Virus record (IMG/VR): IMGVR_UViG_3300006169_000035
Direction: 5' to 3' (one strand)
Length of the DNA: 64,000 nucleotides
DNA from: an uncultured virus (IMG/VR IMGVR_UViG_3300006169_000035)
Lineage: Duplodnaviria > Heunggongvirae > Uroviricota > Caudoviricetes
Position numbers and translations under genes: made by a program. Under the pieces are notes generated by a model. That model had not been told where the DNA came from, did no database searches, and saw only the letters and a program-made list of their open reading frames with translations. The stretch's first letter is position 1. Each line of letters starts with the position of its first letter. Positions 48,838 through 64,000 of this stretch are shown here, in pieces.

Positions 48838-49125
48838 CTAGCTCTCGTTCCAGACGGTTCCGAGCCAGTGGCCCAGGCCGAAGACGATGAGGTCGACCGC
48901 GATGTTCGGGTAGTCCTCGGGGCCCGATGTGTTGAAGATCGTCTTGCCCACGTCGGCTCGTTCGAGAGCCTGCTCGAAGACTTCGTACGCCGACGCCGCG
49001 AGCATCGACCACACGAAAGGGATCTCCATCAGGCCGAAGCTGAGCCCGATCCCGAAGTGCACGATCGTCCACGGATCGATCGCTGCTCCGTTCTGCTCGC
49101 TCTTGCGGGTCGCAACGAGCTTCAT
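48838..49125 (-). CDS. Small polytopic membrane protein with D-x-W-x-x-x-H / E-x-x-E / N-x-x-x-D polar motifs
   Basis: IDPWTIVHFGIG...AYEVFEQ...PEDYPNIAVDL. Confidence 0.7.
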   Translation of the reverse strand: MKLVATRKSEQNGAAIDPWTIVHFGIGLSFGLMEIPFVWSMLAASAYEVFEQALERADVGKTIFNTSGPEDYPNIAVDLIVFGLGHWLGTVWNES

Positions 49126-49553
49126 CGCACCACGTTCGCTCCGATGAGCGCGCCTCCGATCGGCAGCGCGTAGATCCAGATGTTGCCGAGCACAGGGTGC
49201 ATCGCGACCAGGTCAGGATCGAGAACGAACGGAAGCTCGCCGAGTACGACCCCGATCGCGGTGCCGATCGTGGCGGCAGTTCGCGTAGGGCGAGGTGACG
49301 TGATGGCTGCGCCTGCGCTCGCGGCAACGAGGTGGAAAGCGGCGCATCGGAGACGGACGTTACGGTTGCGTCCGTAGGTCTGGTCGTAGTTCCAGCCGCC
49401 GGTACGGAGACGAGTGAATGCGGCCGCGGCGAGCGCTGCGAGAACTCCTCCCGCTGCAGCTCCGAGCGCAGCTCGTCCTCCGATCGGCAACGGGTTCTGC
49501 TCGACCCACGGATCGAGCATGTCGTCCTCGAGAACTTCGTAGAGCTCGCTCAC
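49122..49553 (-). CDS. Polytopic membrane protein
   Basis: Acidic leader, QNP, then 3-4 hydrophobic segments. Confidence 0.65.
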   Translation of the reverse strand: MSELYEVLEDDMLDPWVEQNPLPIGGRAALGAAAGGVLAALAAAAFTRLRTGGWNYDQTYGRNRNVRLRCAAFHLVAASAGAAITSPRPTRTAATIGTAIGVVLGELPFVLDPDLVAMHPVLGNIWIYALPIGGALIGANVVR

Positions 49554-49771
49554 GACGGCTCCTTTCGATCGTCGTCGAAGATGTTGCCCCATGGCAGATG
49601 GGCGATCGCTACGCCGGCGCCGAGCACGAGTGCACCGATCGCGATGGCTGGCTTGCGATAGAGATCGGCGATCGTTGCTCCCACGCCAGCGATCCCGATG
49701 CCGAGACCGAGCGCTGCAAGAGTGCGACGCGTCGGACCTCGTGAGATCGGATTCTGGTCGTCCACGGGCAA
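49550..49771 (-). CDS. Small two-TM protein
   Basis: DDQNP...LAALGLGIGIAGVG...IAIGALVLGAGVAIA. Confidence 0.6.
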   Translation of the reverse strand: MPVDDQNPISRGPTRRTLAALGLGIGIAGVGATIADLYRKPAIAIGALVLGAGVAIAHLPWGNIFDDDRKEPS

Positions 49772-49777
49772 GCTCCT

Positions 49778-50560
49778 TTACGGCGCGAACGACAGCTGGC
49801 CGGGTTGCGCTCCGCCACCCTTACCGACGCCGGGCCCTGGATCGGGATCAGGGAGTCTGATCTCCGGAACCACCGTCGGATCGAAGTCGCCGAATCCGAG
49901 CTCAGCGAGACGCTCGGCGATCTGCTCGTCGACGAAGTCGGGGTCGCTCGTGCCGAGAACGCGACCACCTTCGGCGATGATGGTCCGGCCGATCACGTAG
50001 ACGAGCCCCATGTAGAGGTTCGCCATGCGGGCCGTCGACGACGGATCGCCTGGCATCGGGACCGGTGGCCAGCGGCACTCCTCCCAGAACTCCATGAAGA
50101 AGTCCGTCGCGAGTTCGGTTGGGTCGGCGCTCTTGGCTGCTGCATCGCTGCTCTCGGCCACGGCGACGTCGATGAGCGCGGAGAGGTACTGGATCTGCGG
50201 ACCTTCTTCGCCTTCGACGAAGACGAAGTCCGAGCAGCCCTCGCCGACGTAGAAGCCAGCCGGCGTCGTCGGTCCCGGTTCGCAACCGTCCTTGTCGCGA
50301 ACGAAGCCGGGATAGTCGGCGCCGCACGGACCAACGCCGAGTCCCCGATCGGGCGGCTCTGTGATGATCGGCGGGATCGGCCGATCGGGCTTGCCGTTCT
50401 GTGGTGGCGGCGGAAGCTCGGACATGTCCTTCTTCCGCCGCCGATCCTCGTATGCACGGTAGCCCCAGTAGCTGAGGCCTCCGACGGCGATGGCGCTGAC
50501 CCCGATGATCGCCCAGGTCAACGGCTTGGGGTTGCGTCGAGATCTGCGTCGCTTCGCCAT
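49778..50560 (-). CDS. Single-pass membrane protein with basic-NP leader
   Basis: MAKRRRSRRNPKPLTWAIIGVSAIAVGGLSYWGY; Cys-containing ectodomain. Confidence 0.8.
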   Translation of the reverse strand: MAKRRRSRRNPKPLTWAIIGVSAIAVGGLSYWGYRAYEDRRRKKDMSELPPPPQNGKPDRPIPPIITEPPDRGLGVGPCGADYPGFVRDKDGCEPGPTTPAGFYVGEGCSDFVFVEGEEGPQIQYLSALIDVAVAESSDAAAKSADPTELATDFFMEFWEECRWPPVPMPGDPSSTARMANLYMGLVYVIGRTIIAEGGRVLGTSDPDFVDEQIAERLAELGFGDFDPTVVPEIRLPDPDPGPGVGKGGGAQPGQLSFAP

Positions 50561-50571
50561 CGTCGTTCTCC

Positions 50572-51351: not shown

Positions 51352-51390
51352 GGGGTTTCTCCTCTTCCAGATACTACAACGTTCGCGGTG

Positions 51391-51693
51391 TCAATGGTCG
51401 AGTAGTAGATGCAGGTGCTTGCGAAACTGCTGCAGGAAGTCGTCCGCGGCGACCGTTTGCGAGGTCTCGGTGGCGTCCCGGAGTTCCCGCTGCAGCTTCG
51501 TCAACGCGGAGCGTGAGAGATCCGCGTCACCGATCGGAAATCCGTGGATCCACATCCGCTGCTGGACGAGCGGTAGATCAGCGCGGAGCTGGATGAGCTC
51601 ACGCTGAGGCGCCCTCGCGGCAGGATTCACGGCCTTGGCCCGGCGAGCCCACGGCCGCACGCGCACAGGAGCAGCAAGTGCCTTGCGAGTCAT
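51391..51693 (-). CDS. Hypothetical protein with basic-NP leader
   Basis: MTRKALAAPVRVRPWARRAKAVNP...; ATGA coupling. Confidence 0.55.
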   Translation of the reverse strand: MTRKALAAPVRVRPWARRAKAVNPAARAPQRELIQLRADLPLVQQRMWIHGFPIGDADLSRSALTKLQRELRDATETSQTVAADDFLQQFRKHLHLLLDH

Positions 51694-52655
51694 CTCGACT
51701 CCCCTCGGGCGAGTCGACGCGCCATGTTGCGGATCCGTTGTTGCTCGGTCCGCTCGCTCACCGAGCGAGGGCCCCACGGGTTGAGAGCTCGAGCCGGGCG
51801 GTAGACGATCTTCTGCGGGTTCGGCTCGGATCCGCCAGCGAGTCGTACCAGGGCGTTAGGGTTCGCATGGCGCCCTCGCAGGAGCTTCTTGTAGTCGCCT
51901 GGTCGCACGTCGAGTTCGAGATCGGCGTCGCGCGGATATCCCTTGTCGATCAGCTTCGCGACGTCTTCGAGCGGCACTTCGACGACGTCGACAAGGCGAT
52001 CTCCACGAAAGAGGAAGTACGCCTCCTTGGGACCACCACTTCCGATCCAGCTGGTTGGCGTGACGCGGATGAGCGTCATGCCAGAAGATGGGTTGTGCTC
52101 CTTCTCGATCGTGGCGAGCTTCCGATAGTAGTCGCGATCCTCGACGAGATGGTCCATGGCGATCGCGAGAGCCGTGTCCGTATCGTCCGTGTGTTCGAGC
52201 TCCACCTTCAGCCCGCGGACGACCTCGGCCGTCTTGAACTCGTCTGCGGTGCGGCCGTCGGCAAGACCGCCGCGTCGAGGCGCTCGCCAACCCTCATGCT
52301 GGCGAGCCTTGACGTGGCACTTGATCTTGTCGTCGCTCATCGGTCCCGGATTTCCTTTGCGATCGGAAAGCTCGGCTTCGTAGACAGCTCCCGATGGGTC
52401 CACGATCCATCCGTTGACCTTGGTCGTTCCCGGCTTGTATTTGCCGAGATCTTCGGTCTCGAACCCGATGAAGTTCACGGGGCGCATGAAGCTCGAACCC
52501 GGAATGACCACGCGGTTCTTGCCGTCCTTGCGGGCGTAGTGTGCAGCGGCCACGATCGCGTACTCGGTGTTCTCCGGGTGGGCGCGCCAGTTCGCGACGG
52601 CGCGCTTTGGCTTCGCGCTCACCTGACCCAACCGATCGCCTCGCGTGACCTTCAT
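51690..52655 (-). CDS. NP-punctuated multi-module protein containing a DUF5661-like domain
   Basis: GLKVELEHT....ALAIAMDHL.E..DYY.KL flanked by KGNP and EHNP; 5 NP. Confidence 0.75.
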   Translation of the reverse strand: MKVTRGDRLGQVSAKPKRAVANWRAHPENTEYAIVAAAHYARKDGKNRVVIPGSSFMRPVNFIGFETEDLGKYKPGTTKVNGWIVDPSGAVYEAELSDRKGNPGPMSDDKIKCHVKARQHEGWRAPRRGGLADGRTADEFKTAEVVRGLKVELEHTDDTDTALAIAMDHLVEDRDYYRKLATIEKEHNPSSGMTLIRVTPTSWIGSGGPKEAYFLFRGDRLVDVVEVPLEDVAKLIDKGYPRDADLELDVRPGDYKKLLRGRHANPNALVRLAGGSEPNPQKIVYRPARALNPWGPRSVSERTEQQRIRNMARRLARGESR

Positions 52656-52667: not shown

Positions 52668-53390
52668 CTAGTTCGCCTTCAGCCACTTCGCGAAGTCGCT
52701 GCCCCAGTCGTCCATGTTCGCACGGAGCTCCTTGAGGCGCTTGCGCGACTGTTCGAGACCCTCGCCGCCGGCGTAGTCCTTCTCGGCACTTGCCTCACCG
52801 ATCCAGTAGGCAGCGCGCACGAGCGATCCGACCGACCGGCGCACGTCGTTGCGTTCTAGCTGGTCGGACGCAGCGGTGAGCTCGCGGTCGGCCGCTGCGA
52901 CAGCAGACTTGAACGATCGAGCCGACTGTGCAGGGTCGTGCGTGTTGCGGGCTCGGGCGCCCCGCTGCGAGCCTCCTCGCTTCGTGCCCGGATTTCTCAC
53001 CTTGGCGGTCTCCAACCACCTCGGGTGCGCCCAGTTTTCGGCGCTCTTGGGAAGCTGCCTGTCTTGTATGAAAGCGTCGACGGTGTCGTTCCAGGCTTCG
53101 CGTCGAGCCGGCTTGTCGGGCACGCCATCTTGCTCGTACTGCTGCGCGATGTAGGGCAGAACCTCCTCACGAAAATACGACTCGAAGTCCTTCTTCGACA
53201 TGGGGTTGCTGCGACGACGCTTCGTTTGCTTCGCCCACTTCACGCGCCAGTCGTTGCCCTGCTTGAAGACGGAGACGTTTTTCACGTCGGGGGACTTCGA
53301 GATGAAGTCTGCGAACGCCTGAGCATCCGACTTCTTCGCATACGGAACTCCGACTCTCGCCTCCCATGGATTCGTGCTCTTCTTCGCCAT
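52668..53390 (-). CDS. NP-punctuated three-module protein
   Basis: MAKKSTNP..., RRRSNP MSKKDF..DKPARREAWND..., KVRNP... Confidence 0.75.
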   Translation of the reverse strand: MAKKSTNPWEARVGVPYAKKSDAQAFADFISKSPDVKNVSVFKQGNDWRVKWAKQTKRRRSNPMSKKDFESYFREEVLPYIAQQYEQDGVPDKPARREAWNDTVDAFIQDRQLPKSAENWAHPRWLETAKVRNPGTKRGGSQRGARARNTHDPAQSARSFKSAVAAADRELTAASDQLERNDVRRSVGSLVRAAYWIGEASAEKDYAGGEGLEQSRKRLKELRANMDDWGSDFAKWLKAN

Positions 53391-53404: not shown

Positions 53405-55684
53405 TCAGCCCGGGTTCGCGAGTCGAGCCGCTGCTCGGCGCTCGCAGATGTTCGCGCAGTGGCAGGGGTTGCCCGCCTTCGGCTGCGCTGTCATCACGCG
53501 CTCGTAGTACGCCTTGTCGATGTTGTCGGTCGAACGGATGACGACGTAGTCGCCGTAGCGCTTGTCCTCCCAGACCGACTGCGCGGTACCGTGGTGATCG
53601 GCTCGAGCCTGGGCGTACTTCTTCGCGAGCGCCAGGTCGTCGAGGCTCACGCCGCCCTTGTCCTTCACCCACGCCTCGTTGAGGCCCTTCGGGTTCGAGG
53701 ATCGAGGCTTGACCGGCGGCGGACCGCGACGACCACCGCGCTCCCACTTCTCCCGCTCCTTGCGGTACTTCGCGAGTTCGACCGCGTCGCCCTTGTAGGG
53801 GTTCTTTCGCTTACCCTCCTTCGTGTACTCGGTACGAAGAACATCGCGAGTCTCACGCCCAAGCGACGTCAGCCCATCGTCGTCGACGAGCTCCATGCGA
53901 TCGAGCAACAGCCACACCTTGTCTGGTATGTGCTGACGCGCTTGTGCTCCACCGGCCGCCGCGAACAAGGCTTTGATGTGGCGACCCGTCGGTTTCTTGT
54001 CCAAGGACATAAGCTCCTCGGCAGCATCACGGGCCTTATTGCGTTCGCTGTTGCGGGCAGGATTGCGGCCAGGCTTGGCCTCCTTCTTCTGGCGTCGCCT
54101 TGGGTTGCTCTGCTTGCGCTCCTCGGCTGCATCGATCGCGGAGTAGACGACGTTGTCCATCTCTGCCGAGAGCTTCTCGTACGACTTGCGCAGCTTCTTG
54201 TCGGAGTCGATCGCTCGCTTGAGGTTCTCCCAGTCGGGCCCGTCGATGTTCTCCCAGAAGCCGACGCCGTGGCCGACGAACGCAGCCCAAGTGTTGAAGG
54301 CGATGTCGTCCTCGGACTCGACGTCGTCGGTGCCCTCAAGGCCTGACGTGCTGCCCGGCGGCCTCTTCATCCACGCGTTCACGACGCGGTTCGCCTCGCG
54401 CGTGAACGCGTTCTTGGCGGCTTCGAGTTCCTTGGTGTGGTGGACCTCGTTCTCCACGTCGCTCGTCGTCAAATCGTCGCGTTCTTGGACCGCGCCTTCG
54501 ATCATGCCGTCGATCTCGAAGTCCACCCACTCGCTGGCGGAGTAGTGGCGCCCTTGGTTGGTCTTGCGACCGCGAGGGTTTTCGCTCTTGCGTGCGGCCT
54601 CGAAGGCCTTCTTTGCAGCCGCGTAGCTGCGGCGTGCGACCGCGTTGATGTCGTCGCCGAACGTCTCCTCCATCTCGGCGTAGGTCTTGGTGGACGGTTC
54701 CGCATCGACGTTGTCGGAGCCGTGATACCCCGCGCCCATTTCAGCGACGCGCCACTTCGCGAGCGGATCACCGGATGCGAGCTCTCGGATCTCTGCCTTG
54801 GTCGTGCCGTACGTGCTGGCGATCTCCCCGAGGTCGGACTTCATCCAGTCGAGCTGGTTTTCGAGGACGTCCTCGTCGGGATCGTACGGGAACCACCGAA
54901 CCTCGTAGGTTGCGGACTCGATCTCGTCCTCGTCCTCTGGTGCTTCCCAGAAGATCCAGCGCAACTCCTTGTACGTGGGGTCGTAGTACAGGATCCCTCC
55001 GCCGTGCGTCAGCGGATCGACGTCGCCGGTGCTGAGGATCGGAATGTTGCGCTCTGGGTTCTTCCGACCCTTCTTCTTCCCACTCTTCTTCTTCACGCTC
55101 TGCCTCTTCTTTCCGCGCCAGCCAGGTTCGATCCGATCGGCGATCGCGGCACAGTAGGCACCGGGATCGGAAACCTTCTTCTTCCCGCGGCGCTTGCTGA
55201 CCTTCTTGATGCAGCCGCTGACGCTGCCGCCGGGCATCTCCTTCATCGGGTTGCCCTTGCGACCTCGCTTCTTGCGACGCGGGTTGTCCTCGGAGTACGC
55301 CGCGCTCACCAGCGCCTCTTCGAGCATCGCGTAGGGCTCTTCGAGCTCCTTGCGGAGGCACGACGATATCTTCTGCCAACGGCGCTCGGTGGCATCGGGG
55401 TAGAACTCGTCCCATCTGCCATCCCAGATCCCGACGCCTTCGCCGGCGAGTGTCGCGTAGACGTCGTACGCGGTCCCCGGATCGTTGAAGAGCCGCGACG
55501 TGTTTCCCTTCGGAGGGAACTTCTTGAAGCAGGACTTGAGCGCTTCCTGGACGCTCTCCTCGAAGTAGACCGATGCGTCCCGTACCTCGTCAGGCATGCT
55601 GACCCGCTTGTCCGCGAGACCGTCGAGGACGAACTGCGCCCAGTCTTCAGGCGCATACTCCGGGTTCTTCTTCTTGCGTGCCAT
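53405..55684 (-). CDS. 759-aa NP-punctuated multi-module protein (putative polyprotein)
   Basis: 11 NP dipeptides in basic linkers separating mostly acidic modules. Confidence 0.8.
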   Translation of the reverse strand: MARKKKNPEYAPEDWAQFVLDGLADKRVSMPDEVRDASVYFEESVQEALKSCFKKFPPKGNTSRLFNDPGTAYDVYATLAGEGVGIWDGRWDEFYPDATERRWQKISSCLRKELEEPYAMLEEALVSAAYSEDNPRRKKRGRKGNPMKEMPGGSVSGCIKKVSKRRGKKKVSDPGAYCAAIADRIEPGWRGKKRQSVKKKSGKKKGRKNPERNIPILSTGDVDPLTHGGGILYYDPTYKELRWIFWEAPEDEDEIESATYEVRWFPYDPDEDVLENQLDWMKSDLGEIASTYGTTKAEIRELASGDPLAKWRVAEMGAGYHGSDNVDAEPSTKTYAEMEETFGDDINAVARRSYAAAKKAFEAARKSENPRGRKTNQGRHYSASEWVDFEIDGMIEGAVQERDDLTTSDVENEVHHTKELEAAKNAFTREANRVVNAWMKRPPGSTSGLEGTDDVESEDDIAFNTWAAFVGHGVGFWENIDGPDWENLKRAIDSDKKLRKSYEKLSAEMDNVVYSAIDAAEERKQSNPRRRQKKEAKPGRNPARNSERNKARDAAEELMSLDKKPTGRHIKALFAAAGGAQARQHIPDKVWLLLDRMELVDDDGLTSLGRETRDVLRTEYTKEGKRKNPYKGDAVELAKYRKEREKWERGGRRGPPPVKPRSSNPKGLNEAWVKDKGGVSLDDLALAKKYAQARADHHGTAQSVWEDKRYGDYVVIRSTDNIDKAYYERVMTAQPKAGNPCHCANICERRAAARLANPG

Positions 55685-55686
55685 CC

Positions 55687-55992
55687 TCATTTCCCTTCGG
55701 CGTAGTCGCGAGCTTCTTGCAGGGATCCTACAACAAGAGGCCTGCCCGACGACGGCTCGAGCTGCCAGCGTCCGTCTTCGAGTTCGTAGGTGACCCACGT
55801 GGTCCCGTTGATCCTGACGGTTAGCGCGTGGCCAAGCGGAGCCTGAGCGTGATCGATCCTCGACCACTGCAGACGCCTGGGGTTCCGCTGTCGTTGCTCC
55901 GGTCGCCGCACGAGCCTGTAGATCCCGTAGCTCACAGCTGCAACGCCGAGAGCTGCGCCTCCTGCAACGAGGATCTTCGTGGTGCGCGTCAT
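55687..55992 (-). CDS. Single-pass membrane protein with internal RQRNP
   Basis: KILVAGGAALGVAAVSYGIYRL. Confidence 0.7.
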   Translation of the reverse strand: MTRTTKILVAGGAALGVAAVSYGIYRLVRRPEQRQRNPRRLQWSRIDHAQAPLGHALTVRINGTTWVTYELEDGRWQLEPSSGRPLVVGSLQEARDYAEGK

Positions 55993-55996
55993 GGGA

Positions 55997-56609: not shown

Positions 56610-56631
56610 GTTCGTGTCTCCCTTCTTCGCT

Positions 56632-56862: not shown

Positions 56863-57386
56863 CACTGCAACTCCTCGATGGACACGCCCTGGCCTTGCGC
56901 CCACCGTTGCATCATCGCGTACCAGGTCGCGACGTCGTCTTCGGTCAGCATGCTGTCCTGCTGCATCACCGTGATCAGCTCGGAGAACACGACCGCGAAC
57001 AGCTTGGCTTCGCCCGGGAGATTGGTCCGGGCCGGATAGGTCGCGCAGCTCGGAGCCAGGCTTCGCACGTAGCGAGCTGCAATCGCGAACGGATCGACGG
57101 GTCCCGACGCCGAAGCAGACCGGATGCGCTGACGAAGTTCGTCGCGCAGTCGTGGCTGATCGACGAGATCGAACGACGCGCAACCGGGAGCGACTACGAT
57201 CGGACGACTCAGCAGATCGTCGTCCGTGGCTGCCCACGCGATGGTGGCGATGGTAGCGATCGCGATGACGCTGCCGCCTACGCCGAGCGCGATCTTCTCG
57301 GCGCGCGAGAGATTTCGCAGCGGGTTCCTGATGCGCCGCAGCGGGTTACCGATCCGCCGAAGCGGATTGCGAGGGCTGACCCTCAT
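56862..57386 (-). CDS. Single-pass membrane protein with triple NPLR leader
   Basis: RNPLRRIGNPLRRIRNPLRNLS then TM. Confidence 0.8.
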   Translation of the reverse strand: MRVSPRNPLRRIGNPLRRIRNPLRNLSRAEKIALGVGGSVIAIATIATIAWAATDDDLLSRPIVVAPGCASFDLVDQPRLRDELRQRIRSASASGPVDPFAIAARYVRSLAPSCATYPARTNLPGEAKLFAVVFSELITVMQQDSMLTEDDVATWYAMMQRWAQGQGVSIEELQ

Positions 57387-57389
57387 CGG

Positions 57390-57887
57390 TCAGCACTCCC
57401 CTTCTGGCGGACACGGCATCCACGAGTAGTACCAGCTTGGGGGATAGAAGGCCGTCGGACGCGGGGCAGCCAACGGCCGCGCCGCCATCTGCTGGGCGAT
57501 TTGCATCGCCGAAAACGGGTTCGCGATCGGCAAGCCGCCGCGACTGGCGATGTAAGCCGAGGCGACCGTCTGCGCGACCTCGGGCGACTCGTAGGGGCCG
57601 GGAAAGAGCACCGGCCCACCGGGGCCATGACCGACCGTCGTCGAATAGCCTGCCGGCGTCTGCTGGACCGAGTAGGGCTGCGTCGGAGCGACCCACGGCC
57701 TGCCGTATGGGTAGTACGACGAGTAGCCCCACGGCCATCCGTATGGGTTGCGCTGTCCGGAGCTCGCGAGGAAGGTGTTGCTGCCTCCTCCGTAGCTGCG
57801 GAAGCGCGGGTTCGCCGAAGGATTGGAAAGCCCGAGCGCCTGACGGCGGGCTTCCATGATCGGGCCACTGCTTCTTCGTCGTCTCAT
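57390..57887 (-). CDS. Tyr/Pro/Gly/Trp-rich low-complexity protein with NP motifs
   Basis: MRRRRSS...SNPSANPR...QRNPYGWPWGYSSYYPY; GGAGG RBS. Confidence 0.7.
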   Translation of the reverse strand: MRRRRSSGPIMEARRQALGLSNPSANPRFRSYGGGSNTFLASSGQRNPYGWPWGYSSYYPYGRPWVAPTQPYSVQQTPAGYSTTVGHGPGGPVLFPGPYESPEVAQTVASAYIASRGGLPIANPFSAMQIAQQMAARPLAAPRPTAFYPPSWYYSWMPCPPEGEC

Positions 57888-58885
57888 GCTGCACCTCCAA
57901 GCGTTCGCTTGTTGTAGTAGCTCTGATTGGCGACGGTCCCGAGGAGCTGCACGGCCGTCCAAGCCTTCCACTCGGCGCCCCCGTACGCGTACGGCGAGAG
58001 CCCCTGCGACCAGTCCGAGCTCGGCACGAGCTGCGTCAGGATCCGACCGATGGCCGCGTCTCGATCCGCTGCCTTCGACCAGTCCACGCCGTTGCCGATC
58101 TGCACGAGCGCAAGCTCGTACACGGCTCGAGTATGCTCGGGCGTGAGGCCGGTGATCAGCGTGGAGATCGCCTTGGGATCGACGTTGGTCGACAGCGAGT
58201 AGGTGCCGCCTTCGTCGACGAGCACCACATGCGTGTCGTCGAGCAGGCCGTCCGAGCCAACAACTCCGAACATCGCGCCGGCGGGCGACTCGACTTGTCC
58301 GGCGACGAGGACGTTGAGCACCGGCACGGTCTCGTACTCTTCGAAGTTCGCCTCCGGTGTCTGGACCATGATCGGCTGTTGGATGTCGAGCATGACGTAC
58401 GGCACGTCGCCGATCGTGGTCGAAGCGCCAAGGATGCTCGCGACACCTTCCCCGCCTCCAGGAAGCTGAGCTCGCCGACGCTGCACGAGACGATAGGCGC
58501 CGTAGCCTGTCGCGGCCGCAAGAACGCCTCCTCCGAGCGCGAGCAAGATCGTCGAGCCCGCAGGGTTCATGCGGGGGTTGCTCTTCTTGCTGTCGGGGCT
58601 GAAGCCAGCGAGGTAGCCACCGAGTGCCGCGCCGATCGGACCGAGGAACACGCCGCCGAGGCCACCGCCGATCGCACCTCTGCGCTTCCTGTCGTCCTTG
58701 GCTCCGTAGTAGCCGCCGAGCGCTGCTCCGCCTGCCCAGCCGACCCACGTCACGACGGCTCCGAAGCCCTTGGCTCCGAGCGCCATCAGCAGGTGACCTG
58801 GGATCCCGCCGATGATGCTGCCGATGAACGCTCCGAGGCCGGAGTGGTTGTTGACGGGGTTCTTCCTCTTGCGTCTGCGGCTCAT
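57884..58885 (-). CDS. Glycine-zipper membrane module joined by NP motifs to a second TM-anchored module
   Basis: MSRRRKRKNP...GAIGGGLGG...KKSNPRMNP-TM-domain. Confidence 0.8.
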   Translation of the reverse strand: MSRRRKRKNPVNNHSGLGAFIGSIIGGIPGHLLMALGAKGFGAVVTWVGWAGGAALGGYYGAKDDRKRRGAIGGGLGGVFLGPIGAALGGYLAGFSPDSKKSNPRMNPAGSTILLALGGGVLAAATGYGAYRLVQRRRAQLPGGGEGVASILGASTTIGDVPYVMLDIQQPIMVQTPEANFEEYETVPVLNVLVAGQVESPAGAMFGVVGSDGLLDDTHVVLVDEGGTYSLSTNVDPKAISTLITGLTPEHTRAVYELALVQIGNGVDWSKAADRDAAIGRILTQLVPSSDWSQGLSPYAYGGAEWKAWTAVQLLGTVANQSYYNKRTLGGAA

Positions 58886-59040
58886 GCTCCACCTCCGAGC
58901 GCTGCGCTCTTCTTCTTGCGGGACTTGTAGGCCAGGATCCCGCCGGCGACGACGAGCCCAACCGTGAGACTCACGGGTAGCAGCCAGGGGCTGACCCCGA
59001 GCTTGTAGTTCTTGCGTCTGCGTTTGCGCTTGCCTGCCAT
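58882..59040 (-). CDS. 52-aa membrane peptide with basic-N leader
   Basis: MAGKRKRRRKNYKLGVSPWLLPVSLTVGLVVAGGILAYKSRKKK. Confidence 0.7.
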   Translation of the reverse strand: MAGKRKRRRKNYKLGVSPWLLPVSLTVGLVVAGGILAYKSRKKKSAALGGGA

Positions 59041-59459
59041 CACGTCACCTGATCGTATTTGTCGACGAGGATCGCGAGCGCTTGCTCGCGGGTGGCCGTA
59101 GGCCAGAAGCCATCGACCACGAGACCTTTGAGGTTGCTTCCGGTTGCGACCACGACGTAGTTGCACGGCGGATCACAGACGTCGGAAGGTGAGCGGAGCT
59201 TGAGGATCCGCCACGCGAACTTGAACCCTTGCGGCCCTTCGACGTCGTAGAAGCCGACGTCGTCGAGATCCCATCCCATGGGGAACGAGCTCACCTCGGG
59301 CATCGTTCCCTCGAGCCGTTCTTCCCACCACTGCTTGGGCTGCTCGATCGCCTTGGGGCGGCTCAGCACACGCACGAGCAGGACGGCCGCCGACGCAGCG
59401 ACGACGCCGGTGCCGATGAGCGCGGGGATGAACCAGGTCGGGTTACGTCGCCGAGTCAT
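59040..59459 (-). CDS. Single-pass membrane protein with basic-NP leader
   Basis: MTRRRNPTWFIPALIGTGVVAASAAVLLV. Confidence 0.8.
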   Translation of the reverse strand: MTRRRNPTWFIPALIGTGVVAASAAVLLVRVLSRPKAIEQPKQWWEERLEGTMPEVSSFPMGWDLDDVGFYDVEGPQGFKFAWRILKLRSPSDVCDPPCNYVVVATGSNLKGLVVDGFWPTATREQALAILVDKYDQVT

Positions 59460-60214
59460 CAGTGGATGAGCCCCCTCGGATGCAAGTCGAGCTCGCCTCC
59501 GTGAATGATGATGATGTTCGGGACGGTGCGGTCGGTGTCCTGCCAGATCCAGACGTCGTACCAGTGGTTGTGGATGTACTCCTGCGCTTCGAGCTTCGCG
59601 GGATCGGGATCAGCGTCGTTCCACTTGTCCGACGCGTAGCTCAGACTGTCGGCTGCGCCGATCGCCTTCACGCTGACGTCTGGGATCCCGACGGTCAGCA
59701 GGCACTGCGGGTCGCGCTGATGCCAGCTGCGGTAGAGCTCGACGCTCTCCCACATGGAGTCCGGGATCGGGTTGCACTCCTGCGGGTAGGGCTGGTTCGG
59801 CATCGCGTAGAGCATCTTGCGGCCGTTGTCCCACCACAGCAGAGGCGGATGGTTGCGATCGAGCTCACGAACCTGCAGACGACCTCGCCGATCGAGGAAC
59901 ACGTACTCCACGAGGACACCGAGATCGATGAGCGGCTTCTTCGGCATGGGCGCCTTGCCGCCGCCGGGCCAGTGGCACACGCCGTCGCTACAGCGCTTCC
60001 AGGTCTGCTTGCCGGTCTGGTTCCACCGAAGCGTGATCTCTCGCCACGCTGCCCGACGAGCCAGATCCTTCTTCCCGTAGACGTCGAGGCCCTCCTCGTA
60101 CGCCTCGTCCCACTCCTCGCGCACCGCATCTGGCAGCGTTCGAGGGGATGGATCCGGGGGATCGTGGATCGACGGCAGCGCGTTGCGGCGTCGCTTTGGG
60201 ACCTTCGAAGGCAT
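59459..60214 (-). CDS. ChaB-like N-terminal domain fused to an unknown domain
   Basis: LPDAVREEWDEAYEEGLDVYG..DLARRAAWREI...W...G..W resembles ChaB. Confidence 0.65.
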   Translation of the reverse strand: MPSKVPKRRRNALPSIHDPPDPSPRTLPDAVREEWDEAYEEGLDVYGKKDLARRAAWREITLRWNQTGKQTWKRCSDGVCHWPGGGKAPMPKKPLIDLGVLVEYVFLDRRGRLQVRELDRNHPPLLWWDNGRKMLYAMPNQPYPQECNPIPDSMWESVELYRSWHQRDPQCLLTVGIPDVSVKAIGAADSLSYASDKWNDADPDPAKLEAQEYIHNHWYDVWIWQDTDRTVPNIIIIHGGELDLHPRGLIH

Positions 60215-60711
60215 CAGTCGTCGTCTTCCTCTTCCTCGTCGTCCTCGTAGAACTCCTCGATCCTCCGTTCGAGCTTGCGGAAGTGCTCTTCCTGCTTGGC
60301 GTCCTGTCGTGCCTCGAACTCCGAGAGCATCCGACGCAGATCGTCGGACGTCGTGCGCTGATCTGCAGCCGCAGCCGCCGTGGCCGCCGCTGTCGCACGA
60401 CGCCTGCGTCCCGTCGAGCGCAGTCGTGGGCTGTACGTGAGCGACTCCGGCATCGTGTCGTCGTACTGCGCTTCGGGCGGACCGTAGTCGCCTTCGAACC
60501 GAGGTGGCGGAGCAGGCGGAGCATCCTTGCGCTTCACCGCGCGACGAATGAGGTTGATGAGCCCATAGCCTCCGGCGACCGCGAAGACGCCGATGAAAGC
60601 ACTGACCGCGGACGTCAAGATCGTCGTCTTGATGAGCTCGACTCGCTGATCGCGGACCTGATCGTCTGTGGGCGGGTTGGGCACGGCACGGATGTTGGGA
60701 TTGTCGACCAT
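60214..60711 (-). CDS. Single-pass membrane protein with acidic tail
   Basis: MVDNPNIRAVPNP...TM...EDDEEEEDDD. Confidence 0.7.
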   Translation of the reverse strand: MVDNPNIRAVPNPPTDDQVRDQRVELIKTTILTSAVSAFIGVFAVAGGYGLINLIRRAVKRKDAPPAPPPRFEGDYGPPEAQYDDTMPESLTYSPRLRSTGRRRRATAAATAAAAADQRTTSDDLRRMLSEFEARQDAKQEEHFRKLERRIEEFYEDDEEEEDDD

Positions 60712-60715: not shown

Positions 60716-61345
60716 TCACGCGTACGCAGCCGAGCGACCGACGGCGGCAAGAACCGCATCGATGCCCGGCCAGTGGTAGTTGCTGCGGATTGCCCTCTTG
60801 AACATGAAGTTCGGATCGATGCCAGCGCATTCGAGACCGCGTGCGAGTTGCGATCGGTAGCCGGGATGATCGACATCGTCGGTGTCGGTCGGGTAGCCCC
60901 AGCAGCGGCGGAAGGCGAGCCAGTCGAGCTCCTGGCCCTCGTCGCCAAATGGGATGCACCGATGGATGTACCACGCCGCGAGAGCGGTCGCGGTCCACGG
61001 ATCCTTGAGCGCTGACGCAGGCAGCCCAAGATCGTAGACCCGAGCAGACTCGGGCCGCATGCCGTAGAGGCCACGGGCCGCGTTGCCGGAGTCCGATCCC
61101 GCGTTCGGATTGCCGCGGCTCTCGATCCAGGCGACGCCGGAGAGGAAGTCGCCGAGGCCGTCGAGGTTCGTGATCCGCTCGATCGGCTTGGCCATCTCGT
61201 GGATGAGCGCGGGCGCACCCGGATCGACCCATCCTCGGCAGAGCTGCGGAGCAGCATCGGGCAACAGGGCGTATACGCCGGTGCCCACGAGCGCCGCGAC
61301 GCCAACGCCCAGAGCTCCGTACGCCGCCCACTGCGGGATCTTCAA
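60716..61345 (-). CDS. Membrane-anchored lytic transglycosylase (SLT-like)
   Basis: N-terminal TM; VAWIESRGNPNA.....ARGLYGM...L.DP.....A.WY. Confidence 0.75.
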   Translation of the reverse strand: MKIPQWAAYGALGVGVAALVGTGVYALLPDAAPQLCRGWVDPGAPALIHEMAKPIERITNLDGLGDFLSGVAWIESRGNPNAGSDSGNAARGLYGMRPESARVYDLGLPASALKDPWTATALAAWYIHRCIPFGDEGQELDWLAFRRCWGYPTDTDDVDHPGYRSQLARGLECAGIDPNFMFKRAIRSNYHWPGIDAVLAAVGRSAAYA

Positions 61346-61668
61346 CGCCGCCCTCCCGCGCTGGCTCGCTTGCCGCGCTTCTTCTTGTATGCGAGGGCTT
61401 TCTCGGTGACGACGTGCACCATCGGCTCGGCGACGTCGAGCAGGTCTCGATGCTCTGGAAGAACGCGACGGCCAACGCGAGCCATGAGCGTCACCAGGTC
61501 GTTCTTCTTTTCGAGCCGGAACCGCGGGAGGTCTTCGTCGACCAGGAGTTCGGCGATGAGCTTGCCGAGTTCCTCTTCGTTCCTCGCGGAGTGGACACGT
61601 TCGAGCGCATCGGTGACCAGGTAGTGGTCGTCGACGCGACGGATGCTGAGCAAGATCGGATCGTTCAT
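61342..61668 (-). CDS. Hypothetical protein with basic tail
   Basis: MNDPILLSIRR...KKKRGKR; coupled ORF. Confidence 0.6.
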   Translation of the reverse strand: MNDPILLSIRRVDDHYLVTDALERVHSARNEEELGKLIAELLVDEDLPRFRLEKKNDLVTLMARVGRRVLPEHRDLLDVAEPMVHVVTEKALAYKKKRGKRASAGGRR

Positions 61669-62081
61669 CGCAGCCACCCCGTCAGTAGAGCACGGTACCA
61701 AGCCGGACCGGGAGGCATGTGTCGCGGCCGGGGCGTACGTGGCGGAGGCGGGTACGATGCGGGGATTCCCGTGGTGTTGAGCAGGGCGGCTACGCTGCTC
61801 GCAACGCGGCGCGTGAACTCCATCTCGGGACCGGTACGCGGGGCTCCGATCGGGATCGAAGGTGCAAGACTGGAAACGATCTCGGACGTGATCGCGTCAG
61901 CGTTGTCGCCCCAGGCCACGCGAGCTCGACCGTAGGTAGGCAAGAAGCACGACGAGATCCAAGAAGGCGTCACCCGGAGCCGGCCAGCGGCGAACGGAGA
62001 CGAGCACGGACGAGGATGCGCCGGCGCGAGTACGACGTAGCCGTGGCGGCTGCGACGAGGGTATGTGCTCGCGGCGACCAT
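61665..62081 (-). CDS. Hypothetical protein
   Basis: Fills the operon gap; ATG adjoins the upstream stop. Confidence 0.5.
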   Translation of the reverse strand: MVAASTYPRRSRHGYVVLAPAHPRPCSSPFAAGRLRVTPSWISSCFLPTYGRARVAWGDNADAITSEIVSSLAPSIPIGAPRTGPEMEFTRRVASSVAALLNTTGIPASYPPPPRTPRPRHMPPGPAWYRALLTGWLR

Positions 62082-62984
62082 TCAGACCCCTGGCAGCTCC
62101 ACTCCCGACATGTCGATGCCGAGTCTCATGATCGCAGGCGGGGGATGAAGCGTGCTCGAGCCGTCGCTCCACGCCCCGAAGCGGATCGAAGGCATCGGGT
62201 TGTTCGGTGACAACGCGGCGAGGTCGAAGGCAGGCATCCACACCAGCATCTGCCGGCTGCCGCGGGAGCCCGGCAGCGAGCGTCCTGCCACGCTCGTCGT
62301 CCTCCTGAGCGAGCGTCCCGACTGGATCCGATCGAGGTTGTCGGCGTGTCGCGGCAGCCAGTTGAGCCCGCGACCCTCCGCGTTGAGCACGTAGGCGCCG
62401 GAGAGTGGTCGCGCCGGATCGCCGCCGGGCTTGTTCGGATCGTTGCCGCCGGCGAGGTTGAGGTTGCTCTGTCCGTAGAGCAGATCGTTGATGCCACCGA
62501 CGACCATGATCGCATCGCGGGTCTCTCGTCGCAGACGTCGCCCAAGGGACGCGTTTGCTTGCTGACCCTCAGCGGCCGCGATCGATGGATCGTTGCCCGC
62601 CATCGCAAGCGCAGATCCGAGAAGGGCCCGCACCATGCGGTCATACCCCCACGATGGCTTGAAGGGTCCGCTCGCGTCGCCGGCGTTGAACCACGTCGAT
62701 GGCGTCGGGTAGTTCTCGTAGTGCAGCGCCGGGAACTCCCACGGGTATCCCGGGTCGTCAGGCGTGACGATCTCCCACGCTGTCGACTCGTCGGAAGGCT
62801 CGTCGTCCTCCTCGTCGCTCTCGCCATCGTCGACGTCAGGCAACCGCGGGCCGAGCGGCTCTTCGGCAGTCGCCCTCCTGCGACGCGATGCAGCGTACGC
62901 AGCTCCGCCTAGACCGAGTACGAGCGCTCCCGATCCGATCATGAGCACCCACTGCGTGGGCGTCGGATTTCGTCTACGCCTCAC
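62082..62984 (-). CDS. Single-pass membrane protein with basic-NP leader
   Basis: GGAGG RBS, GTG start: RRRRNPTPTQWVLMIGSGALVLGLGGAAYAASRRRR. Confidence 0.8.
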   Translation of the reverse strand: MRRRRNPTPTQWVLMIGSGALVLGLGGAAYAASRRRRATAEEPLGPRLPDVDDGESDEEDDEPSDESTAWEIVTPDDPGYPWEFPALHYENYPTPSTWFNAGDASGPFKPSWGYDRMVRALLGSALAMAGNDPSIAAAEGQQANASLGRRLRRETRDAIMVVGGINDLLYGQSNLNLAGGNDPNKPGGDPARPLSGAYVLNAEGRGLNWLPRHADNLDRIQSGRSLRRTTSVAGRSLPGSRGSRQMLVWMPAFDLAALSPNNPMPSIRFGAWSDGSSTLHPPPAIMRLGIDMSGVELPGV

Positions 62985-63742
62985 TCCACCTCCCAGAAGT
63001 TGTTCCAAGCGTACCAGCCGTCCTCGAAGTCGTAGATCCCGATCCCGAGACGCACCATGAGGTAGTCCCACCAGAGCTTGAAGTTCGGGTTCTGCTTGAG
63101 CGCCTGCTTGTTGAGCGGGTCGGGACACCGAGGCATGCGTGCCTGCATCTCGGCGAGCTCGGCGTAGATCCGTGATCCGATCTCGCGAATCGAGTCCTCT
63201 TCGAGAGGAACGTCGTCACGCGCGTAACGAGCGACGAGGCGCGCGACGTAGCCCCAGGCGGTTCCGGTCTGACCGGTTGGGCTGACGTATCGCAGCGCGT
63301 CGGCCAGCGTGGCCTGTGCAGACGGCCCTCCGTTGACCGGCATCCACCAGTTGCCCCACTCCTGGTAGCCGGGCACCGGCAAGAAGAGACGACCTTCCGC
63401 GATCACCTTGCAGTCCGGACTGATGTAGACGAGGTTGCCGTTCCAGTCGAAGTCGCGCGGGATCCCACCAGCTCCGTACTGTCCGCCTCCCCATCCCTTC
63501 TTGCGCGGCGGAGGACCTTGGTTGTCCGGGCCCGGGATGATCTCGCCCGATCCAGGGATGTCCGGATCGATGTCGGGCTCTCGCTCGCCAGGTGGCAGCA
63601 CGGGACCGATCGGCTCTTCGCCGGCACTCTTCTTCCGGCGGCGCATCGCGTACGCTCCGCCGGCAATGCCGAGTCCGAGCGTGCCAGCGGCAACGAGGAT
63701 GGCCCACTGAGTGGGCGACGGGTTTGGCAGACGCAGTCTCAT
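62981..63742 (-). CDS. Single-pass membrane protein with NP leader
   Basis: MRLRLPNPSPTQWAILVAAGTLGLGIAGGAYAMRRRKK. Confidence 0.8.
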   Translation of the reverse strand: MRLRLPNPSPTQWAILVAAGTLGLGIAGGAYAMRRRKKSAGEEPIGPVLPPGEREPDIDPDIPGSGEIIPGPDNQGPPPRKKGWGGGQYGAGGIPRDFDWNGNLVYISPDCKVIAEGRLFLPVPGYQEWGNWWMPVNGGPSAQATLADALRYVSPTGQTGTAWGYVARLVARYARDDVPLEEDSIREIGSRIYAELAEMQARMPRCPDPLNKQALKQNPNFKLWWDYLMVRLGIGIYDFEDGWYAWNNFWEVE

Positions 63743-64000
63743 GCTGGACCTCTGTCGTTGATGGGGCAGATCTCGGTGCTGATGAGCGCCTTGCGAGCCA
63801 CGAATCCGAGTTCGGAGAAGAGCTGCGAGGCGGTGGGGTGATCACCCGTCACGGGCGGCCAATCGAAGTCAGGGTATAGCTCGCGAGCCATGCACAGACG
63901 GATCTCGTTGGTGAGTTCGTCGATCGTGGTCGTTTCGCTTGCCGCCTTCACGAGAGGGGCTCCGCACTCGCAGACGAGTTCGTCGAGGACCTCGAACTGC
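63739..64000 (-). CDS. Hypothetical protein, 5' end probably outside window
   Basis: Frame open from the window edge (QFEVLDELVCECG...LYPDFDWPP...). Confidence 0.65.
   Translation of the reverse strand, partial: QFEVLDELVCECGAPLVKAASETTTIDELTNEIRLCMARELYPDFDWPPVTGDHPTASQLFSELGFVARKALISTEICPINDRGPA

What the first reader, a model, noticed from the sequence alone, without database searches (positions are those of the whole stretch)
48838..64000. Putative structural operon of membrane proteins without head-tail genes: possible lipid-containing virion
Seen: at least 14 co-oriented genes encode TM proteins, mostly basic leader-N(P)-Gly/Ala-rich helix-Y-basic cluster. They sit beside a histone-like protein, a ChaB-like protein and a TM-anchored transglycosylase. 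No terminase, portal, HK97 capsid, sheath or tape measure is recognisable in the 64 kb. Established: internal-membrane phages such as PRD1 encode many small membrane proteins and a membrane-bound transglycosylase (P7), but their genomes are far smaller. The leader layout also recalls class III (prepilin) signals. Inference: a large membrane-containing virus, or an unusual secreted particle.
Basis: partly seen in the sequence, partly recalled or inferred. Interest (0 to 1): 0.75.

Follow-up and report, generated by a model that had tools for sequence, protein, structure and literature searches.

The report
Tagged membrane and cargo protein operon
A tightly packed operon in an uncultivated phage-like element encodes about 16 small membrane proteins and several multi-module basic proteins that share unusual end-tags, so they look like cargo and entry proteins of a virus particle, but nothing here shows that the particle contains lipid.

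Summary
Window 48838-64000 (minus strand) is one compact operon of at least 26 genes. Fifteen or sixteen encode membrane proteins. It also holds a membrane-anchored SLT transglycosylase, a ChaB-fold protein and a 44% Lys+Arg protein. No terminase, portal, capsid or tail family was recognised in 88 window ORFs, nor in 61 ORFs of related contigs.

New findings:
- Asn-Pro is enriched four-fold (49 observed against 11.2 expected). It follows basic N-terminal leaders in 13 of 25 proteins and sits at module junctions.
- g17 (759 aa) is a fusion of at least six modules that are separate proteins elsewhere, so it resembles a polyvalent protein.
- A short C-terminal tail (RLxNP/RLARG here, LKxRLLR in relatives) ends unrelated proteins. 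These include a RelA/SpoT-domain protein, a primase-polymerase and glycine-zipper membrane proteins.
- The block is syntenic in metagenome contigs of 52 and 103 kb and in a 17.8-kb contig of a Gemmatimonadales MAG. It is absent from phage, plasmid and IMG/VR collections.

Best reading (0.4): a particle cargo and entry module whose tags sort and process the proteins. A lipid-containing virion stays possible (about 0.17) but unsupported. The only FtsK/HerA-type ATPase most resembles accessory ATPases of tailed-phage contigs.

The parts
63739..63999 (-). g1, soluble acidic ORF that is open at the window end, so the operon continues beyond 64000
62981..63742 (-). g2, bitopic membrane protein: leader MRLRLPNP, TM helix, Pro-rich linker, conserved 170-aa domain of unknown fold
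   Evidence: 14 homologue clusters. AF2 pLDDT 76. No fold match: best Foldseek E 0.3, best VIA Z 4.4.
62082..62984 (-). g3, bitopic membrane protein: leader MRRRRNP, TM helix, acidic linker, conserved C-terminal domain. Two homologues in L004.
61665..62081 (-). g3b, conserved Pro-rich ORF ending ...WYRALLTGWLR
   Evidence: homologues in L004 and L009
61342..61701 (-). g4, 119-aa soluble protein with a basic C-terminus
60716..61345 (-). g5, N-terminally membrane-anchored lytic transglycosylase (SLT, with the E-S motif)
   Evidence: PF01464, 8e-07, 29.1 bits against cut-off 21.3
60214..60711 (-). g6, bitopic membrane protein with Pro-rich and acidic tail
59459..60214 (-). g7, ChaB-fold N-terminal domain plus a conserved beta domain of unknown fold. 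Family of 36 clusters.
56394..59459 (-). g8-g14. Small membrane proteins with (K/R)n-N-P or (K/R)n-N-x leaders. g10 is a fusion of a glycine-zipper module and a second NP-leader plus TM unit. g12 has three NPLRR repeats. g11 is a non-membrane G/Y/P/W-rich protein.
55687..56380 (-). g15 and g16, bitopic membrane proteins with small C-terminal domains
53405..55684 (-). g17, 759-aa polyvalent-type protein with at least six modules separated by basic Asn-Pro linkers: A 5-140, B 141-196, C 205-375, A' 372-535, D 620-670, E 668-759. C-terminal tail RLANPG.
52668..53390 (-). g18, basic soluble protein with leader MAKKSTNP and internal NP junctions
51690..52655 (-). g19, modular basic protein with a DUF5661 module between NP junctions. 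Tail RRLARGESR.
51391..51693 (-). g20, 100-aa basic protein ending ...HLHLLLDH, conserved in L009
50572..51351 (-). g21, Lys/Arg-rich (44%) protein, presumed to condense DNA. Tail RLANRLSNP. Counterparts in L005, L006 and L009.
48838..50560 (-). g22-g25. g22 has leader MAKRRRSRRNP, a TM helix, a Pro-rich linker and a domain. g23-g25 have two or three TM helices. All are conserved in L006.
27755..28783 (-). Outside the block: RelA/SpoT-domain protein with leader MARRRHN and the same C-terminal tail (RRLANGCF)
32735..34138 (+). Outside the block: GP88-family protein with a tail-like C-terminus (RAANRLVNG)
364..2124 (-). DUF87/HerA-FtsK-type ATPase, the only packaging-ATPase-like gene in the window. 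Probably accessory.

Best explanation
The block is a conserved, late-type 'particle cargo and entry' module of an uncultivated, high-GC, temperate phage-like element. Its contig is 75 kb and contigs of relatives reach 103 kb.

Shown:
- at least 26 tightly packed genes (spacing -43 to +39 nt);
- about 16 small membrane proteins, including an anchored SLT transglycosylase;
- a ChaB-fold protein;
- polyvalent-type modular basic proteins (g17-g19);
- a 44% Lys+Arg protein (g21);
- lineage-specific tags, namely Met-(Arg/Lys)n-Asn-Pro leaders, Asn-Pro at module junctions, and a short C-terminal tail (RLxNP/RLARG in this clade, LKxRLLR in sister clades). The tail is also attached to otherwise ordinary enzymes.

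Inferred:
- The tags are sorting and processing signals that bring this protein set into one assembly, most likely the virion.
- From the virion the proteins enter the next host together with the DNA.
- The SLT and the membrane-active proteins open the envelope.
- The polyvalent modules, primase-polymerase and alarmone-synthetase-like enzyme act early.
- The Lys/Arg-rich protein condenses the DNA.
- Asn-Pro junctions are probably proteolytic maturation sites (about 50% likely). Otherwise they are structural Asx-Pro turns or helix caps in basic DNA-binding linkers.

Whether the particle is tailed or contains lipid is not settled.
For: Asn-Pro enrichment.
- 49 NP dipeptides against 11.2 +/- 3.1 expected in the 25 block proteins (2000 shuffles, maximum 23).
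- Upstream genes: 33 against 20.6 +/- 4.4.
- The codons for NP vary, so selection acts on the protein.

Modularity.
- Pieces of g17 match 232 cluster representatives as discrete modules at varying positions, many of them stand-alone.
- Module B is a 66-aa protein in L003 and module A' a 175-aa protein in L004.

NP at junctions. NP lies within 12 aa of extrapolated module starts in 55 of 109 cases (20.4 expected) and ends in 43 of 107 (18.5 expected). In proteins with at least 2 NP the figures are 52 of 67 against 17.9, and 38 of 66 against 16.5.

C-terminal tails.
- Window 5 of 96 ORFs, L003 1 of 11, L004 7 of 25, L005 10 of 19, L006 2 of 13.
- Unrelated phage loci L001, L002 and L008: 0 of 65.
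- Tagged proteins include a LigD-type primase-polymerase (L005), a RelA/SpoT-domain protein, a GP88 protein, Lys/Arg-rich proteins and glycine-zipper membrane proteins.
- Homologous modules outside the lineage lack both tails and leaders.

Fusion partners. In relatives the same modules are fused to RadC/JAB (2 of 148), ChaB (2), DUF4314, DUF6926, DUF5661, LigT and an HExxH peptidase-like domain. This is the repertoire of polyvalent proteins, which the authors predict are packaged or co-transferred and autoprocessed (PMC5512222, passages read).

Synteny. The block is syntenic in L004, L006 and L009.

Viral context.
- PHROG hits for a Dda-like helicase (5e-80), a clamp, ParB and an integrase.
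- Collagen-like fibres with phrog_13925 (about 1e-30 to 1e-32) in L004.

Precedents (search listings and abstracts only): T4 capsid-targeting sequences, and SPN3US ejection proteins cleaved by a prohead protease.
Against: - No capsid, portal, terminase or prohead protease was recognised in 88 window ORFs or in 61 ORFs of relatives by Pfam (35 of these also by PHROGs). Virion association is therefore pure inference.
- Bitopic membrane proteins cannot easily be stored in a membrane-less capsid, and 15-16 of them is far more than any known ejectosome has.
- A first, naive test using raw alignment-envelope edges showed no NP enrichment: 10 of 107 starts against 17.2 expected, and 11 of 81 ends against 12.5. 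Only boundaries extrapolated to g17's own NP-defined modules gave the signal. That is partly circular for g17 itself, though not for the targets.
- The tail regular expressions were written after seeing the tails.
- The NP leader is not conserved in L004-clade orthologues of g2.
- L009 has no tails (0 of 18).
- No protease is present in the window.
Confidence: 0.4

Rival explanations
1. The element is a large non-tailed virus, or a vesicle-like particle, with a lipid membrane. The roughly 16 membrane proteins are virion membrane proteins. Their basic N-termini face the DNA. The LKxRLLR-type tails act as amphipathic membrane-targeting helices that load soluble cargo onto the same membrane.
For: - Many co-oriented small membrane proteins plus a membrane-anchored SLT, as in PRD1-type phages (recalled).
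- No head-tail gene in 64 of 75 kb, nor in 61 relatives' ORFs.
- An FtsK/HerA-superfamily ATPase is present.
- No relatives were found in the IMG/VR copy in four scans with block queries (the two hits were spurious), nor in one with the ATPase.
- The same tail occurs on membrane and soluble proteins.
- Tails of the L004 and L005 clades are Leu- and basic-rich, like MinD- and FtsA-type membrane-targeting sequences (recalled).
Against: - No jelly-roll capsid family was hit in any scan.
- The ATPase lies 47 kb from the block. Its closest Atlas clusters are 79-94% viral with Uroviricota commonest, and it is far below the VirB4 and HerA family cut-offs.
- The fibre N-terminal domain in L004 most resembles predicted models from Uroviricota (TM 0.61, a lead only).
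- Tails in this window's clade (ARLANP, ARRLARG) are too polar to be a membrane-binding helix.
- The known membrane-containing phages I recall have genomes below about 45 kb.
Confidence: 0.17
2. The block does not encode virion components. It builds a complex in the host inner membrane during infection or lysogeny, for example for envelope remodelling, superinfection exclusion or lysis control. The C-terminal tails are degrons or docking peptides for a host factor, for example a ClpX-type basic C-terminal signal, that time the life of early proteins.
For: - Bitopic N-in/C-out topology with Pro-rich periplasm-spanning linkers.
- An adjacent cluster of glycosyl-, methyl- and sulfotransferases, conserved in L006.
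- M23 and SLT wall hydrolases with anchors.
- Basic C-terminal tags resemble MuA-type ClpX signals (recalled).
Against: - This does not explain why a DNA-condensing protein, a primase-polymerase and polyvalent anti-defence-type modules share the tag with membrane proteins and lie in the same tightly packed operon.
- It does not explain the NP-junction polyprotein architecture.
Confidence: 0.2
3. The block is a divergent conjugative or secretion apparatus of an integrative element or plasmid. The membrane proteins plus SLT form the mating channel. The DUF87 ATPase is VirB4- or TraB-like. The Arg-rich C-terminal tails are translocation signals for proteins transferred with the DNA.
For: - Integrase, ParB, DNA methylases, RadC/DUF4314-type modules and a tagged primase-polymerase are typical of conjugative elements.
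- About 40% of polyvalent proteins lie in conjugative contexts, and primases are transferred in conjugation (PMC5512222).
- T4SS signals are C-terminal and positively charged (recalled).
- The ATPase N-terminus matches 86 plasmid records.
Against: - No relaxase, coupling protein or VirB4 family was found. NCBIfam VirB4-like hits score 29 and 22 bits against cut-offs of 590 and 325.
- g17 and g7 have no match in 72,556 plasmids.
- There is no ATPase inside the block.
- L004 carries phage-type collagen-like fibres, and the window carries many phage-typical genes.
Confidence: 0.1

Closest known systems
Polyvalent proteins of phages and conjugative elements (Iyer et al. 2017, PMC5512222; passages read)
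   Same: g17-g19 are arrays of small, independently occurring modules. In relatives the same modules are fused to RadC/JAB, DUF4314, ChaB, LigT and HExxH peptidase-like domains. The authors predict that such proteins are delivered with the DNA and autoprocessed.
   Different: None of the six g17 modules has a Pfam or PHROG family. Junctions are marked by a regular basic Asn-Pro motif, and unrelated proteins carry a common C-terminal tail. ChaB, DUF4314 and 'linker' had 0 occurrences in my term search of the paper, and I saw no such motif or tail in the passages shown (12 of 19 places). The window itself encodes no peptidase domain.
Capsid-targeted internal and ejection proteins of tailed phages: T4 IPs and Alt with a capsid-targeting sequence, SPN3US E proteins, P1 Dar (search listings and abstracts; details recalled)
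   Same: Terminal peptide tags on many unrelated proteins, basic DNA-associated proteins, probable proteolytic maturation, and a lytic transglycosylase among entry proteins (T7 gp16, recalled).
   Different: No prohead protease, capsid or portal is visible. The tag chemistry is different (basic-Asn-Pro, and the RLxNP or LKxRLLR tail). Most members here are true bitopic membrane proteins.
PRD1-type internal-membrane phages (Tectiviridae and other Varidnaviria)
   Same: A cluster of small membrane proteins with a membrane-bound transglycosylase, an FtsK/HerA-superfamily ATPase in the genome, and no recognisable tail genes.
   Different: No jelly-roll capsid or protein-primed polymerase was found. 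The genome is at least five times larger. The ATPase resembles accessory DUF87 ATPases of tailed-phage contigs. The element carries an integrase and ParB.
Type IV pilin-like (class III) signal peptides
   Same: A short basic leader before a hydrophobic helix.
   Different: The junction is Asn-Pro, not Gly followed by Phe/Met. There is no Glu at +5 and no prepilin peptidase. The same leader occurs on soluble proteins and inside polyproteins.

Membership tests
PRD1-like internal-membrane viruses (Varidnaviria) | Vertical jelly-roll (double or single) major capsid protein | tested here: inconclusive
   No capsid family in Pfam or PHROG scans of 88 window ORFs or in 61 relatives' ORFs. These were sequence profiles only, no ORF was folded for this purpose, and about 11 kb of the contig is unseen.
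PRD1-like internal-membrane viruses (Varidnaviria) | FtsK/HerA-type genome-packaging ATPase in the morphogenesis module | tested here: inconclusive
   A DUF87/HerA ATPase lies at 364-2124 (DUF87 3.1e-14; phrog_2666 3.9e-17). It is 47 kb from the block, and its nearest Atlas clusters are mostly Uroviricota.
PRD1-like internal-membrane viruses (Varidnaviria) | Cluster of small virion membrane proteins with a membrane-bound transglycosylase | tested here: met
   15-16 of 25 block ORFs have TM helices, and there is an anchored SLT. Location in a virion was not tested.
Tectiviridae | Linear genome of about 15 kb with a protein-primed family-B polymerase | tested here: not met
   The contig is 75,067 bp. 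No PolB family was found in 88 ORFs. An integrase and ParB are present.
Caudoviricetes virion module | Large terminase, portal and HK97-fold capsid | tested here: inconclusive
   None was recognised, but the contigs are only partly visible. Indirect leads point to tailed phages.
Class III (prepilin) signal peptides | Gly at -1, Glu at +5, and a prepilin peptidase (A24) gene | tested here: not met
   The leaders end in Asn-Pro. I saw no Glu five residues after the junction when reading the 16 sequences. No Peptidase_A24 hit was found in 88 ORFs.
Polyvalent proteins | One polypeptide made of several domains that occur independently or in other combinations in mobile elements | tested here: met
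   g17 pieces A, B, C, A', D and E match 232 representatives at different positions, many of them stand-alone. Fusions to RadC, ChaB, DUF4314 and LigT were found.
Polyvalent proteins | Associated processing peptidase domain | tested here: inconclusive
   HExxH motifs occur in relatives P0068, P0129, P0064 and L004 9476-10399. None occurs in the block proteins, and only one HxxEH match occurs in a low-scoring upstream ORF.
SLT lytic transglycosylase (PF01464) | Profile match above the gathering score, and the catalytic Glu-Ser motif | tested here: met
   g5 scores 29.1 bits against 21.3. The sequence ...AWIESRGNP... is present.
ChaB (PF06150) | ChaB domain | tested here: met
   g7 itself is below E 0.01 in Pfam, but 11 of 36 family members carry PF06150. 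The model (pLDDT 86.6) matches ChaB 1sg7: Foldseek probability 0.99; VIA Z 5.8, rmsd 2.6 A, 56 residues aligned. It also matches baculoviral ChaB-like models.
Type IV secretion / conjugation | VirB4 ATPase, coupling protein and relaxase | tested here: not met
   No such Pfam family in 88 ORFs. The NCBIfam VirB4-like scores of the ATPase are 29 and 22 bits against cut-offs of 590 and 325.

The most novel reading that the evidence does not exclude
An uncultivated lineage of large (75 to over 100 kb) bacterial viruses, possibly of Gemmatimonadota-like hosts, uses a proteome-wide peptide address system. A basic Asn-Pro leader and a C-terminal RLxNP or LKxRLLR tail load dozens of unrelated proteins into a lipid-containing or otherwise unconventional particle. 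The loaded proteins include membrane proteins, a primase-polymerase, an alarmone-synthetase-like enzyme and a DNA-condensing protein. Multi-module polyproteins are then cut at Asn-Pro junctions. This would be the first large membrane-containing bacterial virus and a new kind of maturation signal.
Probability: 0.15. Interest if true: 0.9.

Novelty: new variant of a known kind. Interest (0 to 1): 0.62.

Why it matters
If the tags are sorting and processing signals, they give a sequence-only way to read out which proteins a whole uncultivated virus lineage delivers into its host. They would also provide portable tags for loading foreign proteins into particles.

The block also matters for virus detection. 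About 130 kb of related sequence contains no hallmark gene that current profile libraries recognise, and no relative was found in the IMG/VR copy searched here. Lineages like this one are therefore probably being missed, whatever the particle turns out to be.

The Asn-Pro junction rule would be a new example of polyprotein organisation in a bacterial dsDNA element.

Tried and rejected
Searches that found nothing.
- No whole genome is held for this window, and records behind the metagenome loci cannot be searched. The unseen 11 kb of the contig and the rest of the 103-kb relative could therefore not be read.
- IMG/VR scans with g17, module B, g2, g7 and the ATPase found no true relatives. The two hits (L001, L002) are unrelated tailed phages.
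- g17 and g7 have no match in 50,697 phage records or 72,556 plasmids.
- The first genome-collection scan found nothing. The second found only L009.

Folds.
- The beta domain of g7 and the g2 ectodomain have no convincing fold match. For g7 only ChaB matched, and the best non-ChaB VIA rows score Z 5.2 or less. For g2 the best Foldseek E is 0.3 and the best VIA Z is 4.4.
- Profiles of modules C and A found nothing in the PDB (best E 0.26 and 0.51).
- In PHROGs, 0 of 15 module C members matched, and 2 of 14 module A members matched only phrog_1915.

The ATPase.
- PADLOC and NCBIfam scans gave only generic HerA-superfamily hits.
- A phage record with a distant ATPase homologue (L008) was fetched but not analysed further.

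Rejected or negative.
- The 504-aa ORF 45340-46854 was considered as a capsid candidate. It was rejected because its conserved C-terminal half looks like a DxD glycosyltransferase (by eye).
- The naive NP-boundary test was negative.
- The first tail regular expression found only g21.
- The consensus scan found no sigma-70-type promoter and no convincing terminator bounding the block.
- Earlier findings of this scan returned nothing.

Not used. Complex prediction and the sequencing-run tools were not used. Supplements of the cited papers were not opened.

Full report
**What is there**

The window is 62-67% G+C throughout. No whole genome is held for it. An identical copy of one of its proteins lies on a contig of 75,067 bp, so about 11 kb of the contig is unseen.

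Between 48838 and 64000 the minus strand carries 25 ORFs (g1-g25, coordinates). A conserved 26th ORF, g3b, lies at 61665-62081. Third-position G+C is 0.69-0.88 for 24 of the 25 ORFs as called. For g11 (57390-57857) one search scored a different overlapping frame. Spacing is -43 to +39 nt. The most upstream ORF runs off the window, so the operon continues beyond 64000.

A Kyte-Doolittle scan finds a hydrophobic helix in 15 of 25 proteins, and g22 falls just below the threshold.

Only two Pfam families pass their cut-offs: SLT in the membrane-anchored g5 and DUF5661 in g19. PHROGs give only two weak hits, both to g5.

g21 is 44% Lys+Arg with pI 12.0.

g7 belongs to a family of 36 clusters, 11 of which carry ChaB. 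Its AF2 model (pLDDT 86.6) has a ChaB-fold N-terminal domain and a beta domain with no clear match.

*Asn-Pro enrichment.* Asn-Pro occurs 49 times in the 25 proteins, against 11.2 +/- 3.1 in 2000 shuffles (maximum 23). In 63 upstream proteins the figures are 33 against 20.6 +/- 4.4. NP lies in the first 16 residues of 13 of 25 block proteins but 2 of 63 upstream ones, usually after a run of Arg/Lys. Eight different codon pairs encode it, so the constraint is on the protein.

*Modular proteins.* The same basic Asn-Pro motif recurs inside g17, g18, g19, g21 and g10. An exhaustive phmmer search with g17 found 232 representatives with E up to 1e-3. They match discrete pieces (5-140, 141-196, 205-375, 372-535, 620-670, 668-759) at varying positions, often as stand-alone small proteins. 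Module B is a 66-aa protein in L003, and module A' is a 175-aa protein in L004.

*NP at junctions.* The junction claim rests on two tests.

| Test | Starts with NP nearby | Ends with NP nearby |
|---|---|---|
| Raw envelope edges | 10 of 107 (17.2 expected) | 11 of 81 (12.5 expected) |
| Edges extrapolated to g17's modules, NP within 12 residues | 55 of 109 (20.4 expected) | 43 of 107 (18.5 expected) |
| Same, proteins with at least two NP | 52 of 67 (17.9 expected) | 38 of 66 (16.5 expected) |

The claim rests only on the extrapolated test. The raw-edge test gave no enrichment.

*C-terminal tail.* Many unrelated proteins end in a short common tail.
- In this window's clade the tail is RLxNP or RLARG: g17, g19, g21, the RelA/SpoT-domain protein 27755-28783 and the GP88 protein 32735-34138. 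That is 5 of 96 called ORFs. L006 has 2 of 13.
- In sister clades it is LKxRLLR: L004 7 of 25, L005 10 of 19, L003 1 of 11.
- It was found in none of 65 ORFs of three unrelated phage loci, and in none of 18 in the more distant L009.
- The patterns were written after I had seen the tails.
- Tagged proteins include a LigD-type primase-polymerase, Lys/Arg-rich proteins and glycine-zipper membrane proteins.
- Homologues of modules A and C from outside the lineage lack both leader and tail. The tags were therefore added to pre-existing domains.

**Relatives and context**

The block is syntenic, with rearrangements, in three places:
- a 103-kb metagenome contig (L004);
- the end of a 52-kb contig (L006);
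- a 17.8-kb contig binned into a Gemmatimonadales MAG (L009).

No relative was found in the IMG/VR copy, in 50,697 phage records or in 72,556 plasmids.

The rest of the window looks phage-like or mobile: integrase, ParB, a clamp-like protein, a Dda-like helicase (PHROG 5e-80), DUF2786/DUF7168, DUF1643, an anchored M23 peptidase, a DNA methylase and a glycan-modification cluster. The GP88 homologue occurs in 263 phage records, 234 of them mycobacteriophages.

No terminase, portal, capsid, sheath or tape-measure family appears in 88 window ORFs, or in 61 ORFs of relatives by Pfam, 35 of which were also scanned with PHROGs.

The single FtsK/HerA-type ATPase (364-2124) hits phrog_2666, labelled 'terminase large subunit' (3.9e-17). 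Otherwise it is a generic DUF87 protein. Its nearest ESM-Atlas clusters (0.97-0.98) are same-sized DUF87 proteins, 79-94% from viruses, commonest phylum Uroviricota.

L004 carries three paralogous fibre-like proteins. Each has a collagen-like stretch and a C-terminal domain of phrog_13925 (about 1e-30 to 1e-32). Their N-terminal domain resembles predicted models from Uroviricota (TM 0.61, a lead only).

**Interpretation**

g17-g19 fit the definition of polyvalent proteins. In relatives the same modules are joined to RadC/JAB, ChaB, DUF4314, DUF6926, LigT, ferritin-like and HExxH peptidase-like domains. In the passages I read, PMC5512222 predicts that such proteins are packaged in capsids or co-transferred in conjugation, and that they may be autoprocessed.

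One address tag is shared by a DNA-condensing protein, a primase-polymerase, an alarmone-synthetase-like enzyme, polyvalent proteins and membrane proteins. I think this is best explained by a common destination from which the proteins accompany the DNA into the next cell. My preferred model (0.4) is therefore a particle cargo and entry module. The SLT and membrane-active proteins would breach the envelope, and the NP junctions would be maturation sites. That cleavage step is inferred at about 50%. Otherwise the junctions are Asx-Pro turns in basic DNA-binding linkers.

Precedents are T4 capsid-targeting sequences, SPN3US ejection proteins and P1 Dar proteins. For these I saw search listings and abstracts only, and the details are recalled.

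The weak point is that 15-16 true membrane proteins are hard to fit into a capsid without a membrane.

Two further rivals remain:
- a host-membrane complex whose tails are degrons (0.2);
- a divergent conjugative system whose tails are translocation signals (0.1).

**Limits**

- Gene calls are my own GC3 heuristic.
- TM calls come from a hydropathy scan.
- Only two proteins could be folded.
- The g2 ectodomain (pLDDT 76) and the g7 beta domain have no recognised fold.
- The ends of the contig and most of the relatives' contigs could not be read.

Noticed in passing
window 27755-28783 (-): A RelA/SpoT-domain (small alarmone synthetase-like) protein, with a PADLOC PDC-S33 hit of 1.7e-15. It starts MARRRHN and ends with the same RRLAN tail as the block's cargo proteins, which suggests it is delivered or sorted with them.
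   Followed up: partly
window 36044-46854: A glycan-modification cluster: Methyltransf_24 (x3), a sulfotransferase, a CmcI-type O-methyltransferase, a GT2, a GT-D-like protein and a 504-aa protein with a DxD-type C-terminal half. It is partly conserved next to the block in L006, where GDP-mannose dehydratase and epimerase genes follow.
   Followed up: partly
window 48324-48770 (-): A Gly/Trp/Tyr/Pro-rich repeat ORF (GWGGWGGWGG..., YGYGYGWPYPY) directly downstream of g25 on the same strand, with GC3 0.77. A stretch is 82% identical in L006. It resembles g11 and the first ORF of L009 in composition and may be a 27th gene of the block.
   Followed up: partly
window 34849-36039 (+) and 39367-40263 (+): A 396-aa protein whose sequence looks like a right-handed beta-helix (by eye), and a Ser/Thr-rich ConA-like lectin protein (Laminin_G_3 1.1e-08; PHROG 'virion structural protein' 3.4e-07). 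Either could be a fibre, spike or depolymerase.
   Followed up: no
window 3159 to about 4350 (-): An ORF with a lipobox-like signal (..LTLLGCSE..) and an esterase-like Cys-rich domain. Its upstream extension to 4841 is probably not coding (frame plot).
   Followed up: no
window 31013-31109 (+): ARAGORN calls a 97-nt tRNA-Val(GAC) inside the M23 peptidase ORF on the opposite strand. It is probably a false positive.
   Followed up: no
L005 1-9949 (+): Ten of 19 ORFs in this related contig end in ...LKRRLL(R/K), including a 662-aa LigD-type primase-polymerase. This is the densest run of the tail seen.
   Followed up: partly
L009 10967-11992 (+) and 13875-15167 (+): In the Gemmatimonadales-binned relative, a g16-like N-terminal domain is fused to a ferritin-like domain, and module D is fused to DUF4314. 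These are further examples of module shuffling.
   Followed up: no
window 50654-51607 (+): Long antisense ORFs rich in Phe/Leu/Arg opposite the Lys/Arg-rich gene g21 are artefacts of its codon composition. The same artefact misled my gene caller in L005, L006 and L009.
   Followed up: yes
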